Shown in pieces: positions 9,125 through 18,665 of a stretch of 64,000 nt of DNA. Every line of letters begins with the position of its first letter. Positions within the stretch are counted from its first letter, which is position 1. Source of the DNA: a virus; the IMG/VR virus record IMGVR_UViG_3300049427_000004, positions 96,001 through 160,000 of that record; one strand, written 5' to 3'. The position numbers and the translations under genes were made by a program. The notes below the pieces were generated by a model, which did not search any database, had not been told where the DNA came from, and saw nothing but the letters and a program-made list of their open reading frames with translations.

Positions 9125-9182
9125 TTTTGCCAACTCCCTTCATTCCTTATGTAATAAAAATAGGAAGCTTATTAAGCTTCCC

Positions 9183-9614
9183 TTATTCATTCTCAATATA
9201 GAATTTACTATCCTTTTGAGTGATCCGATTAAATGAGAATACATTCTGTACAGGTTCATCTATAGCGTTAGCAATTTTATACATGGTTTTGACATCTAGG
9301 TTATCATCTTTAAATATTTGATTGATGCGCTGTTTAGTAACTCCAATCATATTTCCTAACTCCTCCTGAGTTATCCCTTTTGACTTTACAACCTCTTTAG
9401 ATCGATTCTCAAACCCTTCAGCTTTGAATATCGCTATTTGTTTATCAATGTATTTATCAGCTTCATTATCATAGTGTATCTCGTTACAATCGTTGCATTT
9501 TGTTGCAGGTATGTTTGGGATAACTAAAGCTTTATTATCGATGATTTTTTCTAAAGTATCTGTATATGAAATTAGATTTGAAGATCCACAGTATGAGCAG
9601 AATGGAATTTTCAT
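9183..9614 (-). CDS. antitoxin, YgiT/MqsA-type zinc finger plus XRE HTH
   Basis: CSYCGS..IPATKCNDCNEIHY zinc finger; KGITQEELGNMIGVTKQRINQI HTH. Confidence 0.8.
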   Translation of the reverse strand: MKIPFCSYCGSSNLISYTDTLEKIIDNKALVIPNIPATKCNDCNEIHYDNEADKYIDKQIAIFKAEGFENRSKEVVKSKGITQEELGNMIGVTKQRINQIFKDDNLDVKTMYKIANAIDEPVQNVFSFNRITQKDSKFYIENE

Positions 9615-9659
9615 TTGTTAACACTCCTTTAATTTTAGTTTTGCGAGAAGCTATGGACA

Positions 9660-9947
9660 TTATTCCTTGTCCATAGCTGTAATGATTGAAATCCATTTAT
9701 CGGTATGTAGTATTTTGATGGCTAATCTATGATTGTTTGAGCCTCCTTCAATTTTGTATGATGTTATTCCATCTGGATTATCATCGTTTGTTCTTAGGAT
9801 TGTATGAGCGTTAACCAGTATGTCATGAACATCTTCACCTGTCAGGTTACGGTCAATCATTTGGTCTTTAGCGTGTTTGGTACGTGAGTACTTGTTTTCA
9901 GTTGCTAATCGATGTATTAGCGAAAGTATTTCTGACTGTGTAGCCAT
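9660..9947 (-). CDS. DUF4258 (RelE-fold) putative toxin
   Basis: YSRTKHAKDQMIDRNLTGEDV pattern typical of DUF4258; upstream of the zinc-finger-HTH gene. Confidence 0.75.
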   Translation of the reverse strand: MATQSEILSLIHRLATENKYSRTKHAKDQMIDRNLTGEDVHDILVNAHTILRTNDDNPDGITSYKIEGGSNNHRLAIKILHTDKWISIITAMDKE

Positions 9948-10033: not shown

Positions 10034-11011
10034 TTAAGAGCCTATTTTGTAATAGGCTCTGTCTGTCTGTTTATTTTGGTTAGATATAATTGATTGATAC
10101 CACTCCTTGTTAATGTATTGGCTTATTGGTTTGTTGACATATGAAAATGTAAGACTAATTAATATTTGATTATCCTTTTTATATGGTGTCTCGTTTATTA
10201 CTTTAATCCAGAATGAATAATCAGAATCAATGAGTTCGCCTATTATAGTTTCGCTTATCGTGTTGCCATTCTTTAGTTTATTGTAAGCACCCATATGTTT
10301 ATTAACATCTCGTTGCCATTCGTTGTGTGACATGTCAAGATCGTAGTTTGTATTGTAGTATAGGAATGTATAACCTTCACTATTAACGCTTATTTCAGGC
10401 TGATTGGATTCTGAAGCAAATAGTTGTAAGTCTAATTGTAAGGAGTGTTGAGAAGCCTCTGAAGGCTCCTCAGTGACTATGTAAGCTAGATCTAGGTCTG
10501 ATTGTTCACAATAGTTATATGCTTCATTATAGGATAAGAATGAACGGTTATAGGCTATGTATGATTGTTCGGTTTGTACTGATTGTACTGGTTTTTCTTG
10601 AGTTTCTTGTTCATTTTCATTATTTACTTCATTGATTACTTCAACTGTTTGTGCTACTTGAATTTCTTCTACTTTAGTTTCATCAATAATATTGAAATGA
10701 GCTTTTAAACGTTGAATATAGTTCATTACTTTTTCTGCATCTTCATGAGTCTTAAGCATTCTATAAGCTACCTTCAACTGTTGTAGACCGTTTTGCTTAT
10801 TTACTTCTGATTGAACGGATTTAGTAGTGGATTCAAAAGTAATAGTGGATACAATCGTTTCACCTGCTTTGATAGCTGCTTGACGGTTATCGGCATAGAT
10901 TAGGAATTCTTCGATTTTACCGAACATGTCAACATTTAATTCATATGTGTAACCCATTTCAATAAAGTTGTAACCTTTACGTCCTTTTTTGGAAATAGTG
11001 AAGTATCTCAT
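10034..11011 (-). CDS. hypothetical multidomain early protein with internal LQLDLQLFAS motif
   Basis: 325-aa ORF with acidic Q/E-rich linkers; SD GAGG; own promoter near 11049-11078. Confidence 0.7.
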   Translation of the reverse strand: MRYFTISKKGRKGYNFIEMGYTYELNVDMFGKIEEFLIYADNRQAAIKAGETIVSTITFESTTKSVQSEVNKQNGLQQLKVAYRMLKTHEDAEKVMNYIQRLKAHFNIIDETKVEEIQVAQTVEVINEVNNENEQETQEKPVQSVQTEQSYIAYNRSFLSYNEAYNYCEQSDLDLAYIVTEEPSEASQHSLQLDLQLFASESNQPEISVNSEGYTFLYYNTNYDLDMSHNEWQRDVNKHMGAYNKLKNGNTISETIIGELIDSDYSFWIKVINETPYKKDNQILISLTFSYVNKPISQYINKEWYQSIISNQNKQTDRAYYKIGS

Positions 11012-11583
11012 AGTGAAAACCTCTTCTCAATGTTTTATTTTATAATTCATTATAGCATGGATGGATTGAGTAAGTAAAGTGATTAGTTTACTTTAATTGA
11101 ATGAAATATTGATATGGATATGTGTGATTGATATGATGCTATAGTGTTCTATTGTGATAGGATATAAGGCTATTGTATGACCGTGTAAGACGTTGTGAGA
11201 CATTATGAGATAATGAGAATAGATATAGTGTAATGTGATGTATGATTGATTAGAGTTGATTGTGGGTAGTGTGAAGCGTTATAGAGTGTATGTAGAGAGA
11301 TCGTGAAAAGATAGATAATAATATGGATGTGATAAGTTATATTAATAAGATATAGATAGTGATAGATAATAGTTATAAGTTGTGTTGAGCATTGTTAATG
11401 GGACATTATACGTCCCGATTATAGAGTTATATGGATATGATAAGTTATTCTTATTGATATGACATATTGATAGATAAAACTTATCTGTTGTCATGTAGTT
11501 GATGGTTAGATAATTATGTGATATCTATTTGATGTGGTAGTATAGGGTTAATAATACAGTATAGCAGAATGATACAGATTTTT

Positions 11584-11668
11584 GTTAACCTAATATAGAT
11601 TGTTTCAGTTAACATATATAGATGATTGTTAACTAACATTGAATATACAAGGTTAACATATATAGATA
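11584..11668. repeat. iteron-like array: four GTTAAC palindromes, GTTAACATATATAGAT twice
   Basis: GTTAAC at 11584, 11608, 11628 and 11652 (spacing 24/20/24). Confidence 0.75.
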
Positions 11669-12595
11669 TGACTAAATGACCAAATTAGAATTCTAGTCAC
11701 TTAACAATTCGGTGCTATGTTACTATAGCGATTTGGAGCTAAGAAGAAAACTTTTATTTTTTTTACTGGTCAATGCTGTTTCATCTGTCCTCCCTCTGAC
11801 CTCACTGGATCGTGGATATCAGTGGCAGACTATACCCTAATCAGTATGTCATTAATAAAGATAGGGTGATGAAATCGGAGTTTTAATTGATGAATATTAG
11901 GCTCATTTCCTCTATTCCGTACGAATGTATATTCGTTGGGAGTGAAAATGTATAGTAATGACAAGGGATGGACGGTCATGGAGTGAGTACCATGCATAGG
12001 TGGGGGGGATGGTTTACATCCAAAAATTGTAAAATATTGAGCAATGGGCGGCTATCTGTTCATCTTCCACACTCAACTTATAATCTCATTCGATATCCAT
12101 TTCATTTCTATTTTTACCTCCATCCACTCTATTCCTATCCATCTACTCAACTTTTCATCCCCACTCAAATCCCACTCAATTTCACCTCTCTCACACCCTC
12201 CTGCTATCGTATTTGCTATCGATCACCTATCGTTAAAACTCAATGTTTATCTACATTTTCACTTTCACCTTATCTCCTCTAATCATCACATTTTCACCAA
12301 TTCCTACCTACATTCACCCATTATCCACCTATCCAATCACCTCTACTCTCAATTTTCCCTTATTTTATCTACCTTTTCACGATACACTCTACTCTTCAGC
12401 AAATCACCTACCATATACAATATCTCCTAATCGCTCTCAATCCCATATAAACTCTACACTTTCCATCTATTCACAGCTCCCAATTCAAACTCTACCGATA
12501 GCACAATTTTCCCTCATCGATAACATATCCTATATATCACCTTTACAGGGGAGGGGGATACTTTAACATCAAAAAATAAAGCAGCTACCCATATA

Positions 12596-13525
12596 CTAGG
12601 TAACTGCCAATTTTTCATTTATATATTTCTCTTCGTATCTCTCAAACATCCCATCATATGTATAGCTATCCTTTTTCTTTTTTATAATAGCCTCACATTT
12701 AACAATAAACTTAGGAAACAAATAATGATCCTTGCACATTTTATAGATATTATAATCATATTGCTCAATTTCACTAAACATGTTAATTGCCTCTTCTATA
12801 TTCCCCCATGCATTACACTCAACTTTTTCTCTAATTTCTAGTACTGTAAATTCACCTTCAACTGTACTGATAACATCATTATCTCCATATACAGAAGAGT
12901 AATCATTTACCTCTTGTATATATCTGTTCAATTTATCATGATAATAAAACTTACCAGAGTCTATTTTAATTCTGCCATCAGACTCCATCCTCTTTAGCAA
13001 CTTCTCTACTCCCTGTGATTTATATCCCATTTGATTTGCCCACTCAGAAATAGATATCCTATGCTCAGAATTTTTCCATTTTGCTATATATGAGAATATA
13101 AAAAACTCCTTAGCATTAACTGATCTATCAAACATCCAATGCTCTATTACAGTAAATCGTTTAGGAGTTGTTTTCAGTAGATATATCTTCATAGGCTGCA
13201 TAAATTTATTAGTAACCTTTTCATCTAATACTTTCATATGTATAAAGCCTTTATCTTGCAAACCAATCAATGCATTATAAACACTAACAAAATTCTTGCT
13301 GGACACCTTCTGTAATTGTGCAGATATGGATAGCATATGAACATTAGTAAACACAATACTCTTATGTATATCATGATTCAATCTGCTGATACAATATAGA
13401 ACATATAACTCATCAATTTTATTCTTATCCTCTAACCAATCCTCAAAAAATGAATTATCAACTTTTATATTATACTCATATAGATTATACATACACTCCA
13501 AATCCAACTGTCGAATCAAATCCAA
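12596..13525 (-). CDS. tandem winged-helix protein, replication-initiator-like
   Basis: FFIFSYIAKWK..ISISEWANQMGYKSQGVEKLLKRMESDGRIK wHTH; preceded by a palindrome array. Confidence 0.55.
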   Translation of the reverse strand: MDLIRQLDLECMYNLYEYNIKVDNSFFEDWLEDKNKIDELYVLYCISRLNHDIHKSIVFTNVHMLSISAQLQKVSSKNFVSVYNALIGLQDKGFIHMKVLDEKVTNKFMQPMKIYLLKTTPKRFTVIEHWMFDRSVNAKEFFIFSYIAKWKNSEHRISISEWANQMGYKSQGVEKLLKRMESDGRIKIDSGKFYYHDKLNRYIQEVNDYSSVYGDNDVISTVEGEFTVLEIREKVECNAWGNIEEAINMFSEIEQYDYNIYKMCKDHYLFPKFIVKCEAIIKKKKDSYTYDGMFERYEEKYINEKLAVT

Positions 13526-13758: not shown

Positions 13759-15999
13759 CTACTCATTCTTCAACATGCTCTCCAAAAATGTCTGTCTTCT
13801 CAAATTATCCACCTTACGCATAGCATAATTCAATGTCTCAGCTTGAGTTAAAATGATACAATAGTCAACAGCTCTCGTGATCGCAGTATAGATTAAGTTG
13901 CAGCTTAACTGGAATTTATGAGATCTGTCTGCAATAATCAAAACAGCCTTACTACTACTCCCTTGACTCTTGTGACAGGTTATACTCCAAGCATGGATCA
14001 ACTGGTTCATCTCATCTAATGACAATTTAACTGTATCATCATCAAATTCAATGATAGTTCCTCTAGGGTCAACCATTATCTCATCTTCATTTCCTTCTTC
14101 ATCTTGAACATACTTTATGTATTTTTCACCTTCTAGGACAATGTTCTGTATTGTTCCACTATCTCCATTTACAATCGTGACTGCTTCGCCTTCATCATTT
14201 TCAATTCCATATGTATTTTTTACATTCATAACATAATCATCTTGTCTAAAGGTCATATAGTCACCGTACTGATATTCAACCTTGGCTTCTGTTTTAGGAT
14301 TAACAAGTTCTTGAACGTACTTGTTAATTTCCACCGTACCGATTTCCCCTTTTTTCGTGGGAGTTAATACCATGATATCCATAGGGTCAAATTTATTGAG
14401 ATATTTTTTGTAATAATGTTTGTATCCATCTTGCATATGATTTTGATCAACACAATGAATGATTAGATTTTCGCCAAACTTCTTCACACCTGAGAAATTG
14501 TCGTCAATGAATTTCTGCTTCATTCGCACACGGCTTGCTATATCAAGAATGCCACCTTCACTTTGGCGAAACACAATATCCAACATAGTCGCTGGAATCA
14601 CTTTGCTTTCAATTGCATCGTGCAATATATTTCCGCCCATGACCGCAGCAAGCTGAGCAGAGTCACCGCAAAATAATATCCTTGCTTTTGGATTAGTTAT
14701 TTTAGATAATAGCATCTGCATTATGAAGATATCAGTCATCGACATCTCGTCTACCACAATTACATCAGCGTCAACTTATATCAATTGTCTTTGCTCTTTG
14801 TCTTTTCCATATCCAATAGCTCTATGTATAGTTTGTGCTTGCCTTCCTGTATAACTTGACAATAGTTTGGCAGCTTTACCTGTAGGAGATAGTAAAACAT
14901 AACTCATTCCTAACTCCTCTAATAATTCAACAAGCAATCTTTGCATCTGAGTTTTCCCTGTACCAGCATATCCTACTAATAGTGAGGCAGAATGCTTTTT
15001 AACATTATGAAAAAATTCCTTCTGTTGCTCAGACAAACCATGTTTTAAGGTATCTTTATATTTGACTTCCATGCGATGTATAAATTCATTTGGGTCAAAA
15101 TTTAATTCCATAGAATTATGAAGCATTTGTTTTAGTTTTGTTGCTATGTGTTTTTCAGCTTGATAAGTTTTCAATAAGGCAATCTTATCACCAATAACAA
15201 TAATTCCTTCTGTATTTTTAATTTGTTCGTTTATTAAATTTTCATTGATATCTAAGTTGTCGATAGCTGCTTTAACCATTTTGTCAATTATCATATATGT
15301 ATGACCTTCTTGCTGATTGTTCTCTAGTGTATATTTGATTCCAGATTGAATTCTGAATGGATGATCGAAAACAAACCCCATCTTACGTGCAATGATATCT
15401 GCTTTCTTGAATCCTATTCCACTCACTAGCTCACAAAGGCAGTAAGGATTGTCTTCAATCTTTTGAATAGCTAATTGCACACTTTCAAACTTCTCTGCAA
15501 TTTTCATAACTACATTGTATGTAATTCCATATCGACCAAGTTTAGATAGTAAGTCTCTATGTTCGATATTTTCTAAAACTTTTTTACGTATCTGTTTATA
15601 TGTCTTTTCACCTATACCCTTAACCAATTTAGAATTGAACTTGTCATCCACAATCATTTGGATAATATCCTCGTTTAGATACACTTTAAATAATTCTTCA
15701 ACCTGTTTATCTGTTAAAAGATACCTAAAGAATGATTTTTGATCCTCACCTGAAGATGGCATATCTTGATATATGGAATGACACTCATAACTTGCACCGT
15801 ATTGTGGATGAACCTCGGTTAACTCTACATTGGCAACATACTCCACTCCTAAATCTAAACGCTGCATGACTCCCTTTATTGATGCATTACTGTATTTATT
15901 AAGTTGTATCGCATGGTCTTTGGTGGTACATGAATAAATGCGAAAATCACCTTTATTGAATATCATTTTAATTGGTGTTAATTTAGTTTCAATTATCAT
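13759..15999 (-). pseudogene. recD2: RecD2-like SF1B helicase interrupted by an in-frame TAA at 14778-14776
   Basis: Walker A GYAGTGKT and LSPTGKAA in the 5' part; the frame continues QRQLI*VDADVIVVDEMSM into motif II, then GDSAQL, FRQSEG, HAWSITCHKSQGS and YTAITRA. Confidence 0.85.
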
Positions 16000-18458: not shown

Positions 18459-18665
18459 TCACCAGAAATCCCTAATCCGAACATCATACCCTTTACCGCG
18501 AAGATAACTTATTACCCTCACGATGGTTTCTTCGTATGGCTCGTAATCATTGTCGCTACATAACCTTGTCGCTGTGTTTTTATTGATGGGCAGCTCACCC
18601 TGTTTGACACCATTCGAATTGCACCACTTACCAAATTTGGTTTGTTGTTTTCCTAATCCATACAT
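18459..18665 (-). CDS. small XRE-like HTH protein of Bacillus mobile elements
   Basis: MYGLGKQQTKFGKWC...NKNTATRLCSDNDYEP...IRDFW family pattern; SD AAGGGGTGG. Confidence 0.75.
   Translation of the reverse strand: MYGLGKQQTKFGKWCNSNGVKQGELPINKNTATRLCSDNDYEPYEETIVRVISYLRGKGYDVRIRDFW

What the first reader, a model, noticed from the sequence alone, without database searches (positions are those of the whole stretch)
10412..10441. Internal ribosomal-protein-L27-type Prp cleavage motif (LQLDLQLFA/S) in an early phage protein
Seen: the 325-aa protein contains SLQLDLQLFASE in a flexible acidic linker between two globular regions. Known: Bacillota L27 starts with an extension such as MLRLDLQFFA/SKK that is removed by the cysteine protease Prp, and staphylococcal phage 80alpha capsid and scaffold proteins use the same motif at their N-termini. 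Here the motif is internal and in a non-structural gene. Inference: a host-Prp-processed polyprotein releasing a C-terminal effector, or a decoy that titrates Prp and impairs ribosome maturation.
Basis: partly seen in the sequence, partly recalled or inferred. Interest (0 to 1): 0.72.

Follow-up and report, generated by a model that had tools for sequence, protein, structure and literature searches.

The report
Ribosomal-protease cut site inside phage protein
A protein of a large SPbeta-like phage of spore-forming soil bacteria carries, in a floppy linker between folded parts, an exact copy of the tag that the host protease Prp cuts off ribosomal protein L27; 17 of its 38 other relatives found keep the tag at the same joint while the parts on either side are swapped, so it is most likely a real host-cut processing site, the first seen in a non-capsid phage protein.

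Summary
ORF 10034-11011 (-) encodes 325 aa, and LQLDLQLF|AS lies at residues 191-200.

- **Uniqueness.** This is the only such motif in the 178,866-bp phage. The phage has no Prp gene of its own.
- **Match to the host tag.** The motif matches P8-P2' of the L27 leader in a Paenibacillus that carries a homologue (MLKLNLQLF|ASKK).
- **Conservation.** A profile search found 39 family members, the window protein included. Eighteen have L-x-[LMV]-[DNE]-L-Q-x-F|[ASG] 20-33 residues after a conserved 30-aa core domain. P1 F, P3 Q and P4 L are invariant, and these are residues that contact Prp in its peptide complex.
- **Module boundary.** Three N-terminal module types and two C-terminal module types occur in every combination around the core plus motif, so the motif marks a junction.
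- **Structure.** AlphaFold2 puts the motif in a disordered linker (pLDDT <50) between confident domains.
- **Precedent.** Published work shows Prp cutting a SUMO-L27 fusion, so an internal site is feasible.

Best reading (about 0.6): host Prp splits the protein into two polypeptides. What the two parts do is unknown. Some relatives end in DarA_C, and one locus has an ART-PolyVal gene next door, which hints at a role in phage-host conflict. Cleavage itself is untested.

This is a new variant of a known kind. Earlier notes of this scan record Prp-like tags on phage head, scaffold, tail and internal virion proteins in other genomes.

The parts
10034..11011 (-). 325-aa modular protein, with no Pfam, PHROG or PADLOC family
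   Evidence: ORF. No family hits. Homologues.
10619..11011 (-). N-terminal module (aa 1-131, type 'A'): beta-strands plus a helical hairpin
   Evidence: AF2 pLDDT 73-91. Shared with P0002-P0005 and P0008 but replaced by unrelated modules in other members.
10469..10570 (-). Conserved about 30-aa core domain (aa 148-181; YxAxNRSFxxYxEAxxYCxxSDFDPxxI), the only segment shared by nearly all members aligned
   Evidence: N155, F158, A164, C168, D172 and D174 conserved in at least 90% of sequences. pLDDT 94-97.
10376..10456 (-). Disordered interdomain linker (aa 186-212) that holds the motif
   Evidence: pLDDT <50 over residues 186-212. Flanking residues vary among homologues.
10412..10441 (-). L27-type Prp motif LQLDLQLF|AS (aa 191-200), with the predicted cut between F198 and A199
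   Evidence: Conservation profile. Host L27 leaders.
10067..10375 (-). C-terminal module (aa 213-315, type 'CA'), alpha/beta, function unknown. It would be released as a fragment of about 127 aa starting ASESNQ
   Evidence: pLDDT 79-91. Shared with P0008, P0020, P0023 and P0031. No hits.
11049..11078 (-). Sigma-A-like promoter TTTACT-18-TATAAT with TG; AGAGG ribosome-binding site at 11020-11024
   Evidence: The last 90 nt before the start codon are 82% identical to the Paenibacillus locus L002.
9660..9947 (-). Downstream DUF4258 protein (putative toxin), syntenic in 3 other loci (L002, L008; 120-aa untested ORF in L005)
   Evidence: PF14076 at 27.7 bits against a cut-off of 25. Synteny.
9183..9614 (-). 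Zn-ribbon + HTH_3 protein resembling the MqsA antitoxin; terminator at 9162-9182
   Evidence: HTH_3 at 2.4e-10. MqsA_antitoxin at 21.3 bits, below its cut-off of 30. Terminator.

Best explanation
The motif is a genuine substrate site for the host's ribosomal-processing cysteine protease Prp. The phage makes a three-part protein: a swappable N module, a conserved 30-aa core domain, and a swappable C module, with a disordered linker before the C module. That linker copies the removable L27 leader. Host Prp, which is always present in Bacillota, binds P8-P1 (LQLDLQLF) and cuts before A199. This gives an N fragment of about 198 aa that ends in ...LQLF and a C fragment of about 127 aa that starts ASESNQ. 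The family thus uses a host housekeeping protease to process a small polyprotein, where classical polyvalent phage proteins are predicted to use an embedded metallopeptidase. Shown here: the motif, its conservation, its position at a module boundary, its disordered context, and Prp plus long L27 in the hosts of homologues. Inferred: the cleavage itself, its timing, and any function of the fragments. A conflict or anti-defence role is suggested only by DarA_C ends and an ART-PolyVal neighbour in relatives.
For: (1) The motif matches host L27 at P8-P2'. The Paenibacillus genome that carries homologue P0002 has L27 MLKLNLQLF|ASKK, with prp between rplU and rpmA. Brevibacillus reuszeri has ...FNLDLQFF|ASKK.
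(2) Eighteen of 39 family members, representatives at no more than 50% identity, carry the motif 20-33 aa after the core. P1 F, P3 Q and P4 L are present in 18 of 18, P6 is L/M/V, P5 is D/N/E, P2 is L/Y/H/F and P1' is A/S/G.
(3) In the SaPrp-peptide crystal structure, P1-P3 are buried and L4 and L6 sit in hydrophobic environments. These are the positions that are conserved here (PMC9261936).
(4) Flanks vary, and the segment is predicted to be disordered.
(5) N types A, B and C each occur with both C types CA and CB, so the motif marks a recombination and module boundary.
(6) An internal site is feasible. His-SUMO-L27 is cut by Prp at the expected site, and N-blocked 11-mer peptides are cut (PMC12324487; PMC9261936).
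(7) P1' Ser occurs in a natural L27, that of L. rhamnosus (PMC9405229 Table 2).
(8) There is no Prp homologue in the phage and no other motif copy in it, so the site is not part of a phage-protease capsid-maturation system.
Against: No experiment supports cleavage. Twenty-one of 39 members lack the motif: most of them carry a second core-like repeat instead, and P0032 joins a CA-like module without it. Cleavage is therefore not essential to the family. P1' Gly (3 of 18) is not documented in the L27 sequences I read. The host of this phage is not identified; it is inferred to be a Bacillales member from its homologues and from a portal 61% identical to that of Geobacillus virus E3. Co-variation with the host leader rests on two host-prophage pairs only (Paenibacillus P2 L with L; Brevibacillus P2 F with Y). 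Constitutive cleavage by an always-present protease leaves open why the two halves are fused at all.
Confidence: 0.6

Rival explanations
1. Prp decoy or competitive inhibitor. The core domain plus motif binds Prp and ties it up, as a slow substrate or through product inhibition. This would delay L27 maturation (host translation shut-off) or block Prp-dependent capsid maturation of competing phages. The variable C modules would be secondary.
For: The core plus motif is the constant unit, kept at fixed spacing while everything else is swapped. Post-cleavage products are reported to act as partial competitive inhibitors of SaPrp (PMC9261936). P1' S/G variants might be poorer substrates.
Against: The core occurs without the motif in 21 members, so it has a function independent of Prp. 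One stoichiometric substrate is a weak way to inhibit an enzyme. The small P1' and P2' residues are conserved as in true substrates.
Confidence: 0.1
2. A short linear or structural motif unrelated to Prp. It could be a hydrophobic beta-strand or docking peptide for a phage or host partner that resembles the L27 leader by convergence.
For: Conservation alone does not identify the reader of a motif. Many family members do without it. The model shows a short helical turn at 197-199.
Against: Ten consecutive positions match the L27 leader of the host genus, including the small P1' and P2' residues. The motif is found nowhere else in 179 kb of phage. It lies in a low-confidence linker, not in a folded domain.
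Confidence: 0.15
3. Guard or sensor of Prp activity. Prp normally cuts the protein and so inactivates it. When a superinfecting Prp-dependent phage saturates or inhibits Prp, the uncut precursor accumulates and triggers a response, possibly together with the adjacent DUF4258/HTH pair.
For: The gene sits in a region likely to be expressed from the prophage, behind a sigma-A-like promoter and next to a toxin-antitoxin-like pair in 4 loci. This reading would explain why the halves are fused despite constitutive cleavage.
Against: It is purely conjectural. There is no PADLOC hit. The toxin-antitoxin pair is absent from half of the loci. No toxic domain was recognised.
Confidence: 0.05
4. The site is cut by a phage-encoded maturation protease with Prp-like specificity, as part of loading the protein into the capsid.
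For: Some relatives end in DarA_C. P1 DarA is processed and packaged into heads (PMC5512222). Notes of this scan report phages with their own Prp fused to the scaffold (unchecked).
Against: No PF04327 match in the 93%-complete phage at E<=1. No other protein of the phage, head proteins included, carries the motif. The gene is far from the head module.
Confidence: 0.05

Closest known systems
Pre-L27 (bL27) N-terminal extension removed by Prp in Bacillota
   Same: The motif is the same in the same register: L-x-L-(D/N)-L-Q-(L/F)-F|A-S. Hosts of homologues have prp between rplU and rpmA together with long L27.
   Different: In L27 the motif is the first 9-12 residues, and removal unmasks a ribosomal protein. 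Here it lies 190 residues in, between folded modules of a phage protein.
Staphylococcus phage 80alpha capsid (gp47) and scaffold (gp46) pre-proteins, cut by host Prp
   Same: A phage protein copies the L27 leader so that a host protease processes it, and the phage has no protease of its own for the job. P2 His or Phe variants occur there as here (PMC9405229).
   Different: The 80alpha sites lie within the first 15 residues of head-assembly proteins. This site is internal, in a gene outside the structural module, and the phage's head proteins lack the motif.
Polyvalent proteins of phages and conjugative elements (Iyer et al. 2017, PMC5512222)
   Same: The architecture is modular and shuffled. 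Relatives carry DarA_C and Rho_N/SAP, and have ART-PolyVal and LPD29 neighbours. Processing into separate products is predicted.
   Different: These proteins are small (250-600 aa) and have no embedded zincin-like peptidase. Release would depend on a host protease site. The window protein itself has no recognised polyvalent domain.
Phage T4 capsid-targeting sequences and phiKZ internal head proteins cut by the prohead protease
   Same: A short conserved peptide marks a processing point in otherwise unrelated or shuffled proteins.
   Different: Those use a phage protease, N-terminal tags and capsid loading. None of these is seen here.

Membership tests
Prp substrates (L27-type cleavage motif) | Motif [ML]xx(D/N)LQ(F/L)F|A(S/H), as given in PMC9405229 | tested here: met
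   LQLDLQLF|AS at residues 191-200. The motif definition was read.
Prp substrates (L27-type cleavage motif) | Motif at the extreme N-terminus, within about the first 15 residues, as in L27, 80alpha gp46/gp47 and the proposed FlhB site | tested here: not met
   P1 is residue 198 of 325, and it lies between residues 149 and 260 in the 18 members. A SUMO-L27 fusion shows that an upstream domain is tolerated.
Prp substrates (L27-type cleavage motif) | Host encodes Prp (PF04327) and a long L27 | tested here: inconclusive
   This is met in the Paenibacillus and Brevibacillus genomes that carry homologues. The host of the window phage is not identified. Its relatives are Bacillales phages, and the literature states that all Firmicutes have Prp.
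Prp substrates (L27-type cleavage motif) | Demonstrated cleavage by Prp | not testable with these tools
   This needs biochemistry or N-terminomics.
Polyvalent proteins (Iyer et al. 2017) | Several domains from the polyvalent vocabulary (DarA, ART-PolyVal, LPDs, MPTase and others) in one polypeptide | tested here: not met
   The window protein has no Pfam hit at E<=0.01. DarA_C occurs only in relatives P0018, P0019, P0033, P0039 and the L015 ORF. ART-PolyVal is a separate neighbouring ORF in L002.
Polyvalent proteins (Iyer et al. 2017) | Embedded zincin-like metallopeptidase for self-processing | tested here: not met
   No peptidase family was found in any of the 37 members scanned.
Phage-encoded Prp systems (Prp gene in the head module) | A PF04327 protease gene in the phage | tested here: not met
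   The six-frame search of the 178,866-bp record found no match at E<=1.
DUF4258 / MqsA-like toxin-antitoxin pair (neighbours) | PF14076 toxin-like gene followed by a Zn-ribbon + HTH antitoxin-like gene | tested here: met
   PF14076 scores 27.7 bits against a cut-off of 25. HTH_3 scores 40.7 bits. MqsA_antitoxin scores only 21.3 bits, below its cut-off of 30.

The most novel reading that the evidence does not exclude
The protein is a sentinel of Prp activity. Constitutive Prp cleavage keeps it harmless. If an invading Prp-dependent phage floods or blocks Prp, the uncut precursor builds up and switches on a defence or maintenance response of the SPbeta-like prophage. This would be the first immune 'guard' of a ribosome-maturation protease. 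A milder novel reading is that Prp is a general polyprotein-processing protease for non-structural phage proteins in Bacillota.
Probability: 0.06. Interest if true: 0.85.

Novelty: new variant of a known kind. Interest (0 to 1): 0.6.

Why it matters
In the papers I read, Prp has only L27 and the two 80alpha head proteins as shown substrates, with FlhB proposed. All of these sites are N-terminal.

A conserved internal site in a shuffled, non-structural protein family of large temperate Bacillales phages would matter in three ways:

- It would widen Prp's substrate range.
- It would show that phages use a host housekeeping protease as a polyprotein-processing enzyme.
- It would supply a natural set of substrate variants (P2 L/Y/H/F, P1' A/S/G) for specificity studies on an enzyme that is being pursued as an antibiotic target.

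It also defines a new modular protein family, with a 30-aa core domain, that is linked to the DarA_C/polyvalent domain network.

Tried and rejected
- **Family libraries.** Pfam, PHROGs and PADLOC gave no family for the window protein.
- **Known phages.** Megablast and tblastn against 50,697 phage records gave no match.
- **First structure model.** The AF2 model from 4 sequences was unusable (pLDDT 39.6).
- **Fold searches.** Searches with the better model gave nothing specific. Foldseek against PDB and BFVD had no hit at E<=0.001. VIA-wide matched only a generic helical hairpin at residues 64-108 with Z<=6.5. The core and C domains therefore remain effectively untested for fold.
- **ESM Atlas.** The C part gave no usable hit.
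- **Word-based searches.** Searches with the C part, for both near-length and shorter proteins, found nothing, so no free-standing C module was found.
- **Co-variation test.** A systematic comparison of the motif with host L27 failed for lack of data. The family was found in 1 of 401 Paenibacillaceae genomes and 1 of 61 Brevibacillales genomes sampled. Three other host assemblies are not held.
- **Viral contig scans.** The first scan found nothing. A core-based scan with A4 found 5 loci.
- **Rejected: chance.** argue against it.
- **Rejected: capsid-maturation tag.** There are no other copies in the phage, no phage Prp, and the gene is outside the head module.

Full report
**Observation.** The ORF at window 10034..11011 (minus strand) encodes 325 aa and contains ...SQHSLQLDLQLFASESNQPE.... 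The finding's coordinates 10412-10441 encode L191-S200. The window is bases 96001-160000 of a 178,866-bp IMG/VR phage record with 34% G+C, estimated 93% complete. A six-frame scan of the whole record finds the motif, even in the loose form [DN][LIMV]Q.F[ASG], in a real ORF only here. The phage has no Prp (PF04327) homologue at E<=1. The gene has an AGAGG ribosome-binding site and a TTTACT-18-(TG)TATAAT promoter.

**What the phage is.**
- The portal is 61% identical to that of Geobacillus virus E3 and 24% identical to SPbeta-group portals.
- Neighbours of the gene include a tyrosine integrase, a RecD2-type helicase, a DnaD_N protein, a sliding clamp and a methyltransferase domain.
- The head and tail genes start about 25 kb downstream.
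- The gene therefore lies in the replication/maintenance block of a large SPbeta/E3-like temperate phage, not in the structural module.
- Directly downstream, ending at a terminator, are a DUF4258 gene and a Zn-ribbon + HTH_3 gene resembling MqsA.

**Homologues and motif conservation.**
- A word-based search found three homologues: P0002 in Paenibacillus sp., plus P0003 and P0004. All keep L[QR]LDLQLF[AS], although sequence after the motif diverges at once.
- A profile of the N-terminal 200 residues, searched against 1.84 billion representatives, listed 39 proteins at E<=0.001, the window protein among them.
- What nearly all of the 37 members aligned share is a core of about 30 aa, YxAxNRSFxxYxEAxxYCxxSDFDPxxI.
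- Eighteen members, counting one extra cluster member, carry the motif 20-33 residues after the core. The profile is P8 L/I, P6 L/M/V, P5 D/N/E, P4 L (18/18), P3 Q (18/18), P2 L/Y/H/F, P1 F (18/18), P1' A/S/G and P2' mostly S.
- Most of the other members have a second core-like repeat where the motif would be.
- In 125 kb of fetched loci the pattern occurs only in family genes and in a host L27 gene (L003).

**Module shuffling.** I split the 18 proteins at the motif and compared the halves.
- The pre-core N parts fall into types A, B and C, plus two singleton types.
- The C parts fall into types CA and CB, plus one singleton.
- A, B and C each occur with both CA and CB.
- The core plus motif is therefore a constant joint between exchangeable modules.
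- The window protein is A + CA. Its closest relative P0002 is 67% identical over the pre-core N part but is A + CB.

**Structure.** With the 37-sequence alignment, AlphaFold2 gives mean pLDDT 76.
- Residues 1-131 form an N domain.
- Residues 148-181 form the core, with pLDDT 94-97.
- Residues 213-315 form the C domain, with pLDDT 79-91.
- Residues 186-212, which include the motif, have pLDDT <50.
- Fold searches were uninformative.

**Hosts.**
- Named members come from Paenibacillus (P0002, P0009, P0011) and Brevibacillus reuszeri (P0023).
- The Paenibacillus genome with P0002 encodes L27 MLKLNLQLF|ASKK, with a 115-aa Prp-sized ORF between rplU and rpmA.
- B. reuszeri has ...FNLDLQFF|ASKK in the same gene arrangement. 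Its prophage protein has IPVDLQYF|SS.
- The aliphatic versus aromatic P2 residue follows the host in these two pairs. Two pairs are too few to count as a test.

**Feasibility, from the literature.**
- Prp cuts His-SUMO-L27 at the expected site, so a folded domain upstream is tolerated (PMC12324487).
- Prp cuts N-blocked KLNLQFF|ASKK peptides. In PDB entry 7KLD, P1-P3 are buried and L4 and L6 lie in hydrophobic environments (PMC9261936). These are the positions conserved here.
- P1' Ser occurs in the L27 of L. rhamnosus (PMC9405229 Table 2).
- The known or proposed substrates named in these papers are L27, 80alpha gp46/gp47 and FlhB, all with N-terminal sites.

**Links to known domain families.**
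- DarA_C (PF18789) ends P0018, P0019, P0033, P0039 and the L015 ORF.
- P0039 has the architecture Rho_N + core + DarA_C.
- In locus L002 an ART-PolyVal ORF follows the homologue. In L006 an LPD29 protein lies nearby.
- These belong to the 'polyvalent protein' vocabulary of Iyer et al. 2017, who predicted processing by embedded metallopeptidases (PMC5512222). No such peptidase is present in this family.
- All loci with enough flanking sequence share the order integrase, RecD2, an unknown protein of about 620 aa, an ORF-poor gap, then the family gene. IMG/VR relatives sit in phages of 64-183 kb.

**Interpretation.** The most economical reading is that host Prp cuts the linker after F198 and separates the N-plus-core part from the C module (confidence about 0.6). 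The motif, its conservation, its context and the host equipment are shown. The cleavage, its timing and the roles of the fragments are inferred. The rival readings are:
- a Prp decoy (0.1);
- a motif unrelated to Prp (0.15);
- a Prp-activity guard (0.05);
- a phage-protease site (0.05).

Members without the motif show that cleavage is optional for the family.

**Relation to earlier notes of this scan (unchecked).** Prp-like tags were noted on head, scaffold, tail and internal virion proteins in other genomes, and this same stretch was noted in another window. Other notes call this phage SPbeta-like and describe the skewed non-coding locus upstream of the gene.

Noticed in passing
window 11012-12595: A 1.5-kb ORF-poor gap lies directly upstream of the gene. 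It has mirrored extreme GC skew (+0.65 at 11000-11600 and -0.65 at 12000-12600) and long-range inverted repeats about 1 kb apart. Several related loci show skewed stretches of +0.64 to +0.84 upstream of the homologue (L002, L009, L013, L018), and short conserved patches link the window with L002, L006, L009 and L013. It may be an origin, an attP site or a non-coding RNA.
   Followed up: partly
window 13759-15999 (-): The RecD2-type helicase is interrupted by a single in-frame TAA at 14776-14778, just before the Walker B segment (VIVVDEMS). The gene is intact in L008, L009 and L013, and is split at a different point in Brevibacillus L006. It could be a pseudogene, a sequencing error or read-through.
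   Followed up: partly
window 9183-9947 (-); L002 9865-10651; L008 9983-10719; L005 1194-2026: A DUF4258 gene plus a Zn-ribbon/HTH_3 (MqsA-like) gene follows the family gene in L002 and L008; L005 has an untested 120-aa ORF plus an HTH_3 gene in the same position. This is probably a toxin-antitoxin or addiction module of the plasmid-like prophage.
   Followed up: partly
L002 9197-9754: In the Paenibacillus prophage, a free-standing ART-PolyVal ADP-ribosyltransferase ORF (PF18760, E=3.5e-10) is inserted between the homologue and the DUF4258 gene.
   Followed up: no
P0007, P0013, P0016, P0017, P0021, P0022, P0024, P0027, P0028, P0033, P0037, P0040; L017, L018: Family members without the Prp motif carry a second, diverged copy of the core domain (FYLYxxTFxTYxEAYNYAIxN), followed by a conserved 'MTNERLQELE' module. 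This is a separate architecture class of the same family.
   Followed up: partly
L013 2126-3229: A related 140-kb element encodes a tubulin-family (TubZ/PhuZ-like) protein near the same RecD2, gap and family-gene block. Another reader noted tubRZ at 18459 onward in this window, which fits plasmid-prophage maintenance.
   Followed up: no
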